A DNA stretch of 64,000 nucleotides, taken from assembly GCF_056746865.1 (NCBI RefSeq), contig NZ_CM163382.1, one strand, 5' to 3'. The notes beneath the pieces are model-generated. The model was not told the origin of the DNA. It made no database searches and saw nothing but the letters and a program-made list of their open reading frames with translations. Positions 791 through 13,130 of the stretch are shown in pieces. The position numbers and the translations under genes were made by a program. Within the stretch, counting starts at the first letter, position 1; every line of letters begins with the position of its first letter.

Positions 791-813
791 TATACCTTTA
801 TACCTGTTATACC
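791..813 (-). promoter_or_regulatory. NanR operator: three direct GGTATA repeats (GGTATAACAGGTATAAAGGTATA on the minus strand) in the nanA promoter
   Basis: Repeats read directly about 40 bp upstream of the nanA start codon; matches the known NanR operator architecture. Confidence 0.75.
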
Positions 814-1668: not shown

Positions 1669-1774
1669 TCTGTAAGGTCAGTGTGATTAACATCATCAGT
1701 GACATCCTATCACAGGATTGAAAGTAGGGGAAAATGGCAGGGTTTTCTCTTTGTGCCTCATCATTACCATAATT

Positions 1775-1783
1775 AACGGAATA
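1775..1783. repeat. Target-site duplication AACGGAATA, left copy, flanking IS1
   Basis: Identical 9-mer directly abuts both IS1 ends (1775-1783 and 2552-2560). Confidence 0.85.
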
Positions 1784-1798
1784 GGTAATGACTCCAAC

Positions 1799-2302
1799 TT
1801 ATTGATAGTGTTTTATGTTCAGATAATGCCCGATGACTTTGTCATGCAGCTCCACCGATTTTGAGAACGACAGCGACTTCCGTCCCAGCCGTGCCAGGTG
1901 CTGCCTCAGATTCAGGTTATGCCGCTCAATTCGCTGCGTATATCGCTTGCTGATTACGTGCAGCTTTCCCTTCAGGCGGGATTCATACAGCGGCCAGCCA
2001 TCCGTCATCCATATCACCACGTCAAAGGGTGACAGCAGGCTCATAAGACGCCCCAGCGTCGCCATAGTGCGTTCACCGAATACGTGCGCAACAACCGTCT
2101 TCCGGAGCCTGTCATACGCGTAAAACAGCCAGCGCTGGCGCGATTTAGCCCCGACGTATCCCCACTGTTCGTCCATTTCCGCGCAGACGATGACGTCACT
2201 GCCCGGCTGTATGCGCGAGGTTACCGACTGCGGCCTGAGTTTTTTAAATGGCGGAAAATCGTGTTGAGGCCAACGCCCATAATGCGGGCGGTTGCCCGGC
2301 AT
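1799..2302 (-). CDS. insB: IS1 InsB (transposase ORF, expressed as InsAB' fusion by -1 frameshift)
   Basis: 167-aa ORF ...[54 protein letters not shown]... recognised as IS1 InsB. Confidence 0.93.
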
Positions 2303-2496
2303 CCAACGCCATTCATGGCCATATCAATGATTTTCTGGTGCGTACCGGGTTGAGAAGCGGTGTAAGTGAACTGCAGTTGCCATGTTTTACGGCAGTGAGA
2401 GCAGAGATAGCGCTGATGTCCGGCAGTGCTTTTGCCGTTACGCACCACCCCGTCAGTAGCTGAACAGGAGGGACAGCTGATAGAAACAGAAGCCAC
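2221..2496 (-). CDS. insA: IS1 InsA (DNA-binding inhibitor of transposition)
   Basis: 91-aa [45 protein letters not shown]...; start codon reads GTG in this copy. Confidence 0.93.
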
Positions 2497-2551
2497 TGGA
2501 GCACCTCAAAAACACCATCATACACTAAATCAGTAAGTTGGCAGCATCACC

Positions 2552-2560
2552 AACGGAATA
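2552..2560. repeat. Target-site duplication AACGGAATA, right copy
   Basis: See left copy. Confidence 0.85.
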
Positions 2561-2824
2561 ATTAACTATTGCGAAAAATTAATGTAACGCAGATAAAAAC
2601 ATCCCGATTGAATTATTTATAAGACTATTCACGAGCATTATGAATATTATGAATGTGTTCTTACAAAATAATCATAAGCGCATATTTTTTAATGAAAAAT
2701 CACCTCACCTACAATTAAAAACACGACATCCGCACCATAAATAACCTTGCAAAAAATATAACATCATTGTTTTCAATCTGCCGTTTATGGGATTGACCGT
2801 TTTCTTTTGACACGGAGTTCAACA

Positions 2825-4192
2825 ATGTTCGGCATAATTATATCTGTCATCGTATTAATTACGATGGGCTATTTGATCCTGAAAAACTACAAACCTCAGG
2901 TGGTGCTGGCTGCCGCAGGTATCTTCCTGATGATGTGCGGTGTCTGGTTAGGGTTCGGTGGTGTGCTCGATCCCGCCAAAAGCAGCGGCTACTTGATCGT
3001 CGATATTTATAATGAAATCCTGCGCATGCTGTCCAACCGCATTGCTGGATTGGGGCTGTCGATTATGGCAGTGGGCGGTTATGCCCGCTATATGGAGCGC
3101 ATAGGGGCAAGTCGCGCGATGGTGAGCTTGTTAAGCCGCCCGTTAAAACTCATTCGCTCGCCGTATATTATTCTGTCGGCAACTTACGTCATCGGCCAAA
3201 TCATGGCGCAGTTTATTACCAGCGCCTCCGGTCTGGGTATGTTGCTGATGGTCACCTTATTTCCGACGCTGGTGAGTCTGGGAGTAAGTCGTCTCTCTGC
3301 GGTGGCGGTTATCGCAACCACCATGTCCATTGAGTGGGGGATTCTGGAAACGAACTCCATTTTTGCTGCCCAGGTCGCAGGAATGAAAATTGCCACTTAC
3401 TTCTTCCACTACCAGCTTCCGGTCGCCTCTTGCGTCATTATCTCGGTGGCGATCTCCCACTTTTTCGTGCAACGCGCTTTCGACAAAAAAGATAAAAATA
3501 TCAATCACGAACAGGCAGAGCAAAAAGCTCTCGATAATGTCCCGCCGCTCTATTACGCCATTTTACCGGTGATGCCGTTAATCCTGATGCTCGGCTCGCT
3601 GTTCCTTGCCCACGTCGGGCTGATGCAGTCAGAACTGCATCTGGTGGTGGTGATGTTACTGAGTTTGACGGTGACGATGTTTGTTGAGTTCTTCCGCAAG
3701 CATAACTTGCGCGAAACAATGGATGATGTGCAGGCGTTTTTTGACGGCATGGGTACGCAGTTTGCCAACGTGGTAACGCTGGTGGTCGCGGGTGAAATAT
3801 TTGCGAAAGGCTTAACGACGATTGGCACTGTCGATGCGGTTATCAGGGGTGCGGAGCATTCTGGTCTGGGCGGTATTGGCGTGATGATTATTATGGCGCT
3901 GGTCATTGCCATTTGTGCCATTGTGATGGGCTCAGGCAATGCGCCGTTTATGTCATTTGCCAGTCTTATTCCGAATATCGCAGCCGGACTACATGTGCCA
4001 GCGGTTGTAATGATTATGCCGATGCATTTTGCCACGACGCTAGCGCGCGCTGTTTCGCCGATTACTGCGGTGGTGGTCGTTACGTCAGGAATTGCAGGCG
4101 TTTCGCCTTTTGCGGTAGTGAAGCGGACAGCGATCCCCATGGCAGTCGGTTTCGTGGTGAATATGATTGCCACAATCACGCTATTTTATTAA
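2825..4192 (+). CDS. dcuD: DcuD, C4-dicarboxylate transporter family (DcuC paralog)
   Basis: Protein begins [34 protein letters not shown]...; the track ORF at 2807 carries a short upstream extension, ATG at 2825 chosen. Confidence 0.92.
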
Positions 4193-4204
4193 GTCATTAA
4201 AAAG

Positions 4205-4233
4205 ACAAAACAGGCCGCCAGGGCCTGTTTTAG
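4205..4233. terminator. Bidirectional intrinsic terminator between convergent dcuD and sspB
   Basis: AAAACAGGCCGCCAGGGCCTGTTTT: GC stem flanked by A-run and T-run. Confidence 0.7.
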
Positions 4234-4235
4234 TA

Positions 4236-4733
4236 TTACTTCACAACGCGTAATGCTGGTCGACCACCACGTGGTGGCTGCGGTGGTTCATCGTCAGGAT
4301 GAGTGTCATCATCGTGATCTGGCTTGTCGCCATCAATAACCGACATAACGGTTTCGTTGTCTGCCGATGCCTCTTCATCATTCATGATGCTGGCATCTTC
4401 ATCGTAGGCAGCTTCAGGTTCAAACATCGTGCCTGCGCCATTTTCACGGGCGTAGATAGCCAGCACGGCAGCCAGCGGCACAGAAACCTGACGCGGAATG
4501 CCACCAAAGCGCGCGTTAAAGCGCACCTCATCATTCGCCAGTTCCAGATTGCCGACAGCACGCGGCGCAATGTTGAGTACGATTTGCCCGTCACGCGCAT
4601 ATTCCATAGGAACCTGCACGCCAGGGAGCGTCACATCCACCACCAGGTGCGGCGTGAGCTGGTTATCCAGCAACCACTCATAGAATGCACGCAGCAGATA
4701 GGGACGACGTGGTGTTAGCTGTGACAAATCCAT
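4236..4733 (-). CDS. sspB: SspB, ClpXP specificity-enhancing adaptor
   Basis: 165-aa ORF MDLSQLTPRRPYLLRAFYEWLLDNQLTPHLVVDVTLPGVQVP... with acidic tail ending ...RPALRVVK. Confidence 0.95.
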   Translation of the reverse strand: MDLSQLTPRRPYLLRAFYEWLLDNQLTPHLVVDVTLPGVQVPMEYARDGQIVLNIAPRAVGNLELANDEVRFNARFGGIPRQVSVPLAAVLAIYARENGAGTMFEPEAAYDEDASIMNDEEASADNETVMSVIDGDKPDHDDDTHPDDEPPQPPRGGRPALRVVK

Positions 4734-4738
4734 ACAGA

Positions 4739-5377
4739 TTAACTCCGGCCCAGACGCATTTCACGTTCAGCTTCAGTTAAAGAAGCAAGGAAAGAGTCAC
4801 GCTCAAAGACGCGGGTCATATAGCCTTTCAGCTCTTTCGCACCCGGGCCGCTGAACTCGATACCCAGTTGCGGCAGACGCCACAGCAGCGGAGCAAGGTA
4901 GCAATCGACCAGGCTGAACTCATCGCTCAGGAAGTACGGCTTCTGACCGAAGACCGGCGCAATCGCCAGCAGTTCTTCGCGCAGTTGCTTACGTGCGGCA
5001 TCTGCTTCAGAAGCTGAACCGTTGATGATGGTGTTCATCAGCGTGTACCAGTCTTTTTCGATGCGATGCATGTACAGACGGCTTTCACCGCGAGCTACCG
5101 GGTAAACAGGCATCAGTGGCGGATGCGGGAAACGCTCATCCAGATATTCCATAATGATGCGAGATTCCCACAGGGTCAGCTCACGATCCACCAGGGTCGG
5201 AACGCTCTGATTCGGGTTGAGGTCAATCAGATCCTGAGGCGGATTGTCCTTTTCCACGTGTTCGATCTCGAAACTTACACCTTTCTCAGCCAGCACAATG
5301 CGGACCTGATGGCTATAGATGTCAGTAGGACCGGAAAACAGCGTCATTACCGAACGTTTGTTGGCAGCGACAGCCAT
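4739..5377 (-). CDS. sspA: SspA, stringent starvation protein A (GST-like)
   Basis: 212-aa ORF MAVAANKRSVMTLFSGPTDIYSHQVRIVLAEKGVSFEIEHV... Confidence 0.95.
   Translation of the reverse strand: MAVAANKRSVMTLFSGPTDIYSHQVRIVLAEKGVSFEIEHVEKDNPPQDLIDLNPNQSVPTLVDRELTLWESRIIMEYLDERFPHPPLMPVYPVARGESRLYMHRIEKDWYTLMNTIINGSASEADAARKQLREELLAIAPVFGQKPYFLSDEFSLVDCYLAPLLWRLPQLGIEFSGPGAKELKGYMTRVFERDSFLASLTEAEREMRLGRS

Positions 5378-12656: not shown

Positions 12657-13130
<474 letters not shown>

What the first reader, a model, noticed from the sequence alone, without database searches (positions are those of the whole stretch)
2637..2654. Tandem direct repeat (ATTATGAAT x2) in the dcuD upstream region just beyond the IS1 insertion
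A perfect 9-bp tandem duplication lies in the AT-rich dcuD promoter region about 85 bp from the IS1 right end. It may be simple slippage, or a duplicated half of a regulator binding site. It is a minor observation and could be relevant if dcuD expression differs in this strain.
Basis: seen in the sequence. Interest (0 to 1): 0.1.

Follow-up and report, generated by a model that had tools for sequence, protein, structure and literature searches.

The report
Ancestral 9-bp tandem repeat upstream of dcuD
The perfect ATTATGAAT x2 repeat is real, but about 99% of E. coli that carry dcuD, including K-12, have the same two copies, so it is an old, ordinary feature of the dcuD upstream region and not a peculiarity of this IS1-bearing strain.

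Summary
In detail: ATTATGAAT occurs twice head to tail at 2637-2654, 85 bp right of the IS1 end (2551) and 171 bp upstream of the dcuD ATG (2825).

It is not specific to this strain.
- About 4,360 of 5,426 complete E. coli genomes carry dcuD and its upstream region. About 99.3% of these have two copies, K-12 included.
- 28 genomes have one copy, on three different flank haplotypes. Most belong to the O145:H28 lineage.
- 2 genomes have three copies, on two different haplotypes.
- So the repeat changes by one unit only rarely, as replication slippage would produce.

The two-unit layout is old. E. whittamii and Escherichia sp. E1V33 have two perfect copies. Fourteen Citrobacter loci have a same-length, imperfect pair, TTTRTGAAA then TTTAYGAAT, with invariant TG/GAA cores.

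Conservation between the genera starts at the repeat and runs to the dcuD ATG. It is 56-78% in the repeat and about 62% downstream. The spacer to the left is about 29% identical, and fourfold-degenerate sites in dcuD about 40%.

The repeat therefore lies in a constrained regulatory block of a gene reported as transcriptionally silent. No known regulator motif, RNA family, conserved RNA fold or coding signal was found. The IS1 has its own target duplication (AACGGAATA) and is unrelated. Interest is low.

The parts
2637..2645 (+). Repeat unit 1, ATTATGAAT
   Evidence: It aligns to Citrobacter consensus TTTRTGAAA. T at position 2 and TG at positions 5-6 are invariant in 19 sequences, and AA at positions 7-8 is kept in 18 of 19.
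2646..2654 (+). Repeat unit 2, ATTATGAAT
   Evidence: It aligns to Citrobacter consensus TTTAYGAAT. GAA at positions 6-8 is invariant in 19 sequences.
2637..2824 (+). dcuD-proximal upstream block conserved between Escherichia and Citrobacter; the repeat forms its distal edge
   Evidence: E. coli versus Citrobacter identity is 0.56-0.78 in the repeat and 0.60-0.65 downstream. It is 0.25-0.36 in the spacer to the left and 0.34-0.46 at fourfold-degenerate sites of dcuD.
2664..2677 (+). CAAAATAATCATAA, imperfect inverted match (12 of 14) to 2638-2651; contains the conserved ATCATAA
   Evidence: inverted repeat I9. ATCATAA is conserved in the intergenus alignment, invariant in six of its seven columns. 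No conserved RNA pairing involves it.
2750..2763 (+). AAAAATATAACATC, invariant 14-mer holding a -10-like TATAAC (2755-2760); the candidate dcuD core promoter, with no recognisable -35
   Evidence: All 14 columns are invariant in 19 Escherichia and Citrobacter sequences. The sigma-70 scan found no + strand promoter at its threshold.
2825..4192 (+). dcuD coding sequence (annotated dcuC-family anaerobic C4-dicarboxylate transporter)
1784..2551 (-). IS1 (context only, not part of the repeat), with 9-bp target duplication AACGGAATA at 1775-1783 and 2552-2560
   Evidence: (I1). The same insertion is found only in strains EC31 and EF5-18-41.

Best explanation
The 18 bp are two head-to-tail copies of a 9-bp unit at the distal edge of the conserved upstream region of dcuD. 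Two copies is the ancestral and nearly fixed state in every dcuD-carrying Escherichia lineage examined. A two-unit layout with the same length and the same TG/GAA cores already exists in Citrobacter, so the arrangement predates the split of the two genera. Copy number changes only rarely, by one unit at a time, most likely through replication slippage. Inferred: an occasional cycle from two copies to one and back would explain why the two units are identical in Escherichia but have diverged in Citrobacter. The repeat has nothing to do with the nearby IS1 and does not distinguish this strain, so it cannot explain any strain-specific dcuD expression. Because it lies within a block conserved well above the neutral level, it probably overlaps a cis-regulatory element of dcuD. 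That element would be two TGAA-core half-sites 9 bp apart, roughly 110-130 bp upstream of the -10-like TATAAC. The factor that would bind it is unknown.
For: Shown. (1) The repeat is exact. (2) Population counts. The 279-bp upstream region is in 4,362 of 5,426 genomes. The two-copy 58-mer covers at least 80% in 4,174 genomes, 3,311 of them exact. With a one-copy query in sensitive mode, 3,799 genomes align with a 9-nt gap, which means two copies. A one-copy form is in 28 genomes and a three-copy form in 2. (3) One-copy alleles sit on three different flank haplotypes. One of them, 23CRST050, is otherwise identical to a two-copy strain. The three-copy alleles sit on two haplotypes. This indicates recurrent changes of one unit. 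(4) Outgroups. E. whittamii and Escherichia sp. E1V33 have two perfect copies although fourfold-degenerate sites in dcuD are only 0.71-0.72 identical. MOD1-EC7003 has ATTATGATT ATTATGAAT. Citrobacter has two imperfect units at the same columns with no indel. (5) Conservation is above neutral and begins at the repeat. (6) Citrobacter has the same nanR-dcuD-sspB-sspA gene order, so the regions are orthologous. (7) The IS1 has its own, different target duplication and occurs at this site in only 2 genomes.
Against: No regulator, binding experiment or mapped transcription start supports a functional role. dcuD is reported as not evidently expressed (Janausch and Unden 1999, as cited in PMC6414658; PMC12886548). 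One-copy (O145:H28) and three-copy strains are viable natural lineages, so copy number is not strictly required. Eighteen columns is a small sample, and the Citrobacter sequences are not independent of each other. A few hundred E. coli genomes with divergent left flanks were classified only indirectly. Homogenisation by slippage cycles is an inference, not an observation.
Confidence: 0.72

Rival explanations
1. Neutral relic. The repeat is an old slippage duplication with no function, and its conservation reflects low mutation input or chance in AT-rich DNA.
For: dcuD is reported as silent. Natural variants with 1 and 3 copies persist, including the whole O145:H28 lineage. No known motif, promoter, RNA family or RNA fold was assigned.
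Against: Intergenus identity in the repeat (0.56-0.78) and downstream (about 0.62) is well above the adjacent spacer (about 0.29) and above fourfold-degenerate sites (about 0.40). There are no indels across about 190 bp. The repeat shows 0 substitutions in 18 positions in E. whittamii and E1V33, where neutral sites differ by about 28%.
Confidence: 0.2
2. Divergent promoter element. On the minus strand each unit reads ATTCATAAT, and the CATAAT of unit 1 lies 18 bp from TTGTAA. This forms a sigma-70-like promoter that points toward nanR.
For: The promoter scan lists TTGTAA-18-CATAAT at 2666 to 2637 on the minus strand, with 9 of 12 matches. The 18-bp spacing exists only in the two-copy form, which follows directly from the sequence.
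Against: The scan found 3 sites where 2.7 are expected in shuffles, so there is no enrichment. In Citrobacter the corresponding hexamers are TTCACG and CATAAA, which lacks the T at position 6 (read from the alignment). The site would give a nanR leader of about 190 nt that crosses non-conserved sequence. B2 strains have nanR without this region.
Confidence: 0.07
3. Start of a small upstream ORF or leader peptide. ATG at 2640, and again at 2649, opens a 34-codon frame that ends at 2744. The 9-bp unit equals 3 codons, so copy-number changes keep the frame.
For: The frame is open for at least 17 codons in all 19 sequences, while the other two frames carry stops. The codon at the unit-1 position varies only among ATG, GTG and TTG.
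Against: Differences between the Escherichia and Citrobacter consensus fall 10, 3 and 3 at codon positions 1, 2 and 3. In dcuD itself they fall 46, 17 and 200. This is the opposite of a coding pattern. There is no Shine-Dalgarno sequence, stop positions differ widely (16 to 34 codons), and peptide identity is low.
Confidence: 0.04
4. Strain-specific or transposon-related change. Either the duplication arose with the neighbouring IS1, or it is the 9-bp footprint of an excised element that makes 9-bp target duplications.
For: The unit length equals the IS1 target duplication length (9 bp), and the region attracts IS1. Independent IS1 insertions are seen in this window, in K-12 C3026 and in WEM25.
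Against: The two-copy form is present in thousands of genomes without any IS here. The resident IS1 has its own, different duplication, AACGGAATA. The two-unit layout is shared with Citrobacter. From general knowledge, E. coli lacks the end-joining that would leave such a footprint.
Confidence: 0.02

Closest known systems
Short tandem repeats that vary by slipped-strand mispairing (bacterial VNTR-type loci)
   Same: Head-to-tail identical units. Alleles differ by whole units (1, 2 or 3 copies). The same change recurs on different haplotypes.
   Different: There are only two units, and polymorphism is very low at about 0.7% of genomes. It is far too stable to serve as a typing marker or a contingency locus.
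Phase-variable promoter repeats, such as spacer repeats between -35 and -10 in Haemophilus and Neisseria surface-protein genes (from general knowledge)
   Same: A tandem repeat in a promoter-upstream region whose copy number can change by slippage.
   Different: It does not lie between recognisable -35 and -10 hexamers of dcuD. It has two units rather than many, and it is nearly fixed in the population. Nothing suggests switching.
Direct-repeat operators of response regulators, such as pho boxes, OmpR sites and the 10-nt tor boxes of TorR (from general knowledge)
   Same: Two adjacent direct units with a conserved core (TGAA or GAA) and a fixed spacing kept across genera.
   Different: The period is 9 bp rather than 10-11 bp. 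No recalled consensus matches both genera. Those compared by eye were the ArgR box, the RcsAB box, the Fur box, tor boxes, CRP, FNR and sigma-54. No binding data exist.
IS1 9-bp target-site duplication
   Same: The length is 9 bp and the copies are perfectly identical.
   Different: The copies are adjacent with no element between them. The sequence differs from the duplication of the resident IS1. The arrangement is ancient and widespread.

Membership tests
Slippage-type short tandem repeat | At least two identical units head to tail | tested here: met
   ATTATGAAT x2, 100% identical.
Slippage-type short tandem repeat | Alleles in the population differ by whole units | tested here: met
   One copy in 28 genomes, two in about 4,170-4,330, three in 2. 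The alignment shows clean 9-bp gaps or gains.
Slippage-type short tandem repeat | Recurrent, independent gains and losses | tested here: met
   One-copy alleles are on 3 flank haplotypes and three-copy alleles on 2.
Phase-variable (contingency) promoter repeat | High-frequency copy-number variation among close relatives | tested here: not met
   About 99.3% of genomes have two copies. The one-copy allele is almost entirely one clonal lineage, O145:H28.
Phase-variable (contingency) promoter repeat | Repeat placed where its length sets promoter spacing or reading frame of the regulated gene | tested here: not met
   No + strand sigma-70-like site spans it. It lies 171 bp upstream of the dcuD ATG.
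Transcription-factor operator with direct-repeat half-sites | Half-site cores and their spacing conserved in orthologous regions of other species | tested here: met
   T, TG and GAA columns are invariant in 19 Escherichia and Citrobacter sequences, with no indel. Identity is above neutral.
Transcription-factor operator with direct-repeat half-sites | Match to the consensus of a known regulator | tested here: inconclusive
   Only by-eye comparison with consensus sequences recalled from memory, and none fits both genera. No motif library was available. The literature search found no site described here.
Transcription-factor operator with direct-repeat half-sites | Demonstrated protein binding or effect on transcription | not testable with these tools
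   Needs a footprint, SELEX, ChIP or reporter assays.
Structured RNA leader or riboswitch | Rfam match or conserved secondary structure with covariation | tested here: not met
   No Rfam match up to E = 1 in 1600-2900. The alifold consensus energy is -1.3 kcal/mol on the + strand and -3.2 on the - strand, and no predicted pair involves the repeat.
Small protein-coding ORF | Substitutions concentrated at third codon positions; conserved start, stop and ribosome-binding site | tested here: not met
   Differences fall 10, 3 and 3 at codon positions 1, 2 and 3, against 46, 17 and 200 in dcuD. Stop positions vary and there is no Shine-Dalgarno sequence.

The most novel reading that the evidence does not exclude
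The two TTRTGAAW units, together with the conserved ATGAWC and ATCATAA motifs just downstream, could form the operator of an unidentified regulator. That regulator would control the 'silent' dcuD gene in Escherichia and Citrobacter. The natural 1-copy (O145:H28) and 3-copy (G5, MEW) alleles would then be ready-made spacing mutants for finding the regulator and the condition that switches dcuD on.
Probability: 0.2. Interest if true: 0.35.

Novelty: new member of a known kind. Interest (0 to 1): 0.12.

Why it matters
For this strain it does not matter. The repeat is the standard E. coli sequence and cannot explain any difference in dcuD expression. The IS1, not the repeat, is what sets this locus apart. 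There is one modest general point. The repeat marks the distal edge of a roughly 190-bp upstream block conserved between Escherichia and Citrobacter, in front of a transporter gene whose expression conditions have never been found. The conserved motifs and the natural copy-number variants give a concrete starting point for finding what controls dcuD.

Tried and rejected
1. Link to the IS1: rejected. The IS1 has its own, different target duplication. Only 2 genomes share this insertion, while thousands share the repeat.
2. One copy as the ancestral state: rejected, from outgroups and from haplotype backgrounds.
3. A + strand sigma-70 promoter created by the duplication: no site reached the scan threshold. 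The junction hexamer TATTAT has no -35 and is not conserved in Citrobacter.
4. The RegulonDB-listed sigma-54 promoter of dcuD (PMC3118216): I saw no convincing TGGCAC-N5-TTGC in the spacer by eye. The sigma-54 ChIP peak assigned to dcuD lies 2,253 bp upstream, outside this spacer (PMC4591121).
5. The GalR site listed for dcuD (PMC5110547): its sequence, GTGGGATCGAGTACAC, does not overlap the repeat.
6. Small ORF or leader peptide: the frame is open in all species, but the substitution pattern is not coding-like.
7. RNA element: no Rfam match and no conserved fold.
8. By-eye comparison with recalled consensus sites gave only half-matches that are not conserved in both genera. The sites were ArgR, RcsAB, Fur, TorR, CRP, FNR, MetR and YpdB. 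These are leads, not tests.
9. Literature searches on dcuD, yhcL and nanR with dcuD found no description of cis-elements in this spacer.
10. A free-gap alignment of the B2 nanR-sspB spacer to the window was uninformative. Reading by eye suggests that B2 keeps a diverged nanR-proximal block plus the sspB-side terminator.

Full report
**Setting**

The left end of the window is the E. coli nan-dcuD-ssp region.
- nanA lies on the minus strand at 1-755, with its 3' end cut by the window edge.
- nanR lies on the minus strand at 877-1668.
- A 768-bp IS1 lies at 1784-2551, flanked by the 9-bp target duplication AACGGAATA (1775-1783 and 2552-2560).
- dcuD lies at 2825-4192, followed by sspB, sspA and rpsI (annotation of matching genomes).
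- The sequence from 1701 to 2830 is identical to strain EC31, isolated from a meat duck.

**Observation**

ATTATGAAT occurs at 2637-2645 and again at 2646-2654. The match is perfect and does not extend on either side. The repeat lies 85 bp right of the IS1 end and 171 bp upstream of the dcuD ATG, in DNA of about 30% G+C. The 9-mer occurs nowhere else in the window.

Simulated sequences of the window's composition contain on average 0.27 perfect tandem duplications with a unit of 9 bp or more per 64 kb. Two are observed. The probability of one in a 273-bp segment like this is 0.006.

**Is it special to this strain? No.**

- The 279 bp between the IS1 and dcuD match 4,362 of 5,426 complete E. 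coli genomes. In all but one of the 39 full-coverage rows sampled, the match spans exactly 279 bp, so there is no 9-bp indel. K-12 MG1655 is among them.
- A 58-mer centred on the two-copy repeat covers at least 80% in 4,174 genomes and is exact in 3,311.
- A synthetic one-copy 49-mer is fully matched in only 28 genomes. These are strain 401651, strain 23CRST050 and 26 genomes of or near the O145:H28 lineage.
- The same one-copy query in sensitive mode aligns to 3,799 genomes with a 9-nt gap, which means two copies. Most of the rest match only from the repeat rightwards, because of SNPs in the left flank.
- Two genomes, G5 and MEW, have three copies.

An alignment of representative spacers shows clean 9-bp differences. 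The one-copy alleles sit on three different flank haplotypes. One of them, 23CRST050, is otherwise identical to the two-copy strain RIVM_C037134. The three-copy alleles sit on two haplotypes. So there have been at least three independent contractions and two independent expansions. That is the signature of rare slipped-strand mispairing around a nearly fixed two-copy state.

The IS1 at this exact site is shared only by EC31 and EF5-18-41. It is unrelated to the repeat.

**Ancestral state**

A scan of one genome per species with the DcuD protein returned three non-coli Escherichia and many Citrobacter loci. E. whittamii and Escherichia sp. E1V33 have two perfect copies. Escherichia sp. MOD1-EC7003 has ATTATGATT ATTATGAAT.

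Citrobacter has the same nanR-dcuD-sspB-sspA gene order, so the spacers are orthologous. At the same alignment columns, with no indel, Citrobacter carries two imperfect units. Their consensus is TTTRTGAAA followed by TTTAYGAAT.

Across 19 sequences:
- T at position 2 and TG at positions 5-6 of unit 1, and GAA at positions 6-8 of unit 2, are invariant.
- AA at positions 7-8 of unit 1 and T at position 3 of unit 2 are kept in 18 of 19.

The two-unit layout therefore predates the split between Escherichia and Citrobacter.

**Constraint**

The full spacer alignment has three parts.
- A nanR-proximal conserved block.
- A central stretch that is not conserved between the genera. The IS1 is inserted here.
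- A dcuD-proximal conserved block that begins at the repeat and runs to the ATG.

Identity between E. coli and Citrobacter, by region:

| Region | Identity |
|---|---|
| Repeat (18 bp) | 0.56-0.78 |
| Rest of the dcuD-proximal block | 0.60-0.65 |
| nanR-proximal block | 0.59-0.72 |
| Central stretch | 0.25-0.36 |
| Fourfold-degenerate sites of dcuD | 0.34-0.46 |

Within Escherichia, E1V33 and E. whittamii show 0 changes in the 18 bp, although fourfold-degenerate sites are only 0.71-0.72 identical. The repeat thus lies in sequence under purifying selection.

The block also contains an invariant 14-mer, AAAAATATAACATC (2750-2763), with a -10-like TATAAC but no -35. An activator-dependent or silenced promoter would fit this. 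dcuD is reported as not evidently expressed (Janausch and Unden 1999, cited in PMC6414658; 'silent gene' in PMC12886548).

**Mechanism (shown and inferred)**

Shown: the repeat is ancestral and nearly fixed, it changes rarely by whole units, and it lies in a constrained block.

Inferred:
- The changes arise by replication slippage.
- Occasional cycles from two copies to one and back keep the Escherichia units identical, while the Citrobacter units have diverged.
- The return to two units and the indel-free alignment suggest that length or spacing matters.
- The conserved TGAA and GAA cores 9 bp apart may be half-sites of an unknown DNA-binding protein.

I could not assign a regulator. By-eye comparisons with recalled consensus sequences gave only partial matches that are not conserved in both genera. 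The papers I could search describe no site here.

**Alternatives tested**

- A minus-strand sigma-70-like site (TTGTAA-18-CATAAT, 2666 to 2637) uses unit 1 as its -10. However, the scan is not enriched over shuffles, and the hexamers are weaker in Citrobacter.
- A 34-codon ORF (2640-2744) starts in the repeat and stays open for at least 17 codons in all species. However, substitutions concentrate at first codon positions (10, 3 and 3, against 46, 17 and 200 in dcuD). There is no Shine-Dalgarno sequence, and stop positions vary.
- No Rfam family matches, and there is no conserved RNA structure.

**Verdict**

The feature is real but ordinary. It is the standard E. coli sequence, ancient, and only marginally polymorphic. 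It has no bearing on this strain's dcuD expression. Its only wider value is as a landmark of the conserved upstream block of a cryptic transporter gene. Interest is 0.12.

Noticed in passing
window 1784-2551 (target duplications at 1775-1783 and 2552-2560): An IS1 is inserted 115 bp upstream of the nanR start codon, in the non-conserved middle of the nanR-dcuD spacer. The same insertion is found only in strains EC31 and EF5-18-41. A preprint reports IS5 insertions in this spacer selected during laboratory evolution for altered nan regulation, so this IS1 may affect nanR and nan operon expression.
   Followed up: partly
L011 (K-12 C3026) 808-1505; L006 (WEM25) 1747-2444: Independent IS1 insertions occur in the same nanR-dcuD spacer in other strains. 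In WEM25 the IS1 adjoins gltD, which implies that the whole nan region up to the dcuD upstream sequence was deleted. The AT-rich spacer looks like an IS1 hotspot.
   Followed up: partly
L010 (ST131 strain ZH193) 3578-4974, compared with window 1669-4235: About 1,050 of 5,426 E. coli genomes lack dcuD and its upstream region, and nanR directly abuts sspB. Their nanR is only about 95% identical, which is B2-like. Citrobacter shares the nanR-dcuD-sspB order, so dcuD looks ancestral and lost in this group. The species representatives of E. albertii, E. fergusonii, E. marmotae and E. ruysiae gave no DcuD hit.
   Followed up: partly
window 1704-1718: The palindrome ATCCTATCACAGGAT lies in the nanR-proximal conserved block. 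It is nearly invariant in Escherichia and Citrobacter and could be an operator or leader element for nanR.
   Followed up: no
window 2750-2763: AAAAATATAACATC is invariant in all 19 Escherichia and Citrobacter spacers. It contains a -10-like TATAAC with no recognisable -35, and is the likely core of the dcuD promoter.
   Followed up: partly
window 12691-12709: A second perfect 9-bp tandem duplication, TTAAAGCAT x2.1. It is the only other one with a unit of 9 bp or more in the window.
   Followed up: no
window 791-813: An imperfect tandem repeat, TATACCTGT-like with 2.7 copies, lies upstream of nanA. It corresponds to the GGTATA repeats known from memory as the NanR operator.
   Followed up: no
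L027 (JAGOHU010000210.1, Negativicutes MAG) 710-2074: A 2.7-kb contig binned as Negativicutes encodes a DcuD 75% identical to the E. coli protein. This is far closer than the 42-46% of other Negativicutes (Acidaminococcaceae, Succiniclasticum and Selenomonadales) homologues. It could reflect horizontal transfer or a binning error.
   Followed up: no
L046 (strain MEW) spacer, compared with L001 (G5): The three-copy strain MEW also has a 1-bp deletion, apparently in the T-run about 30 bp downstream of the repeat. This is a second small slippage-type change in the same spacer.
   Followed up: partly
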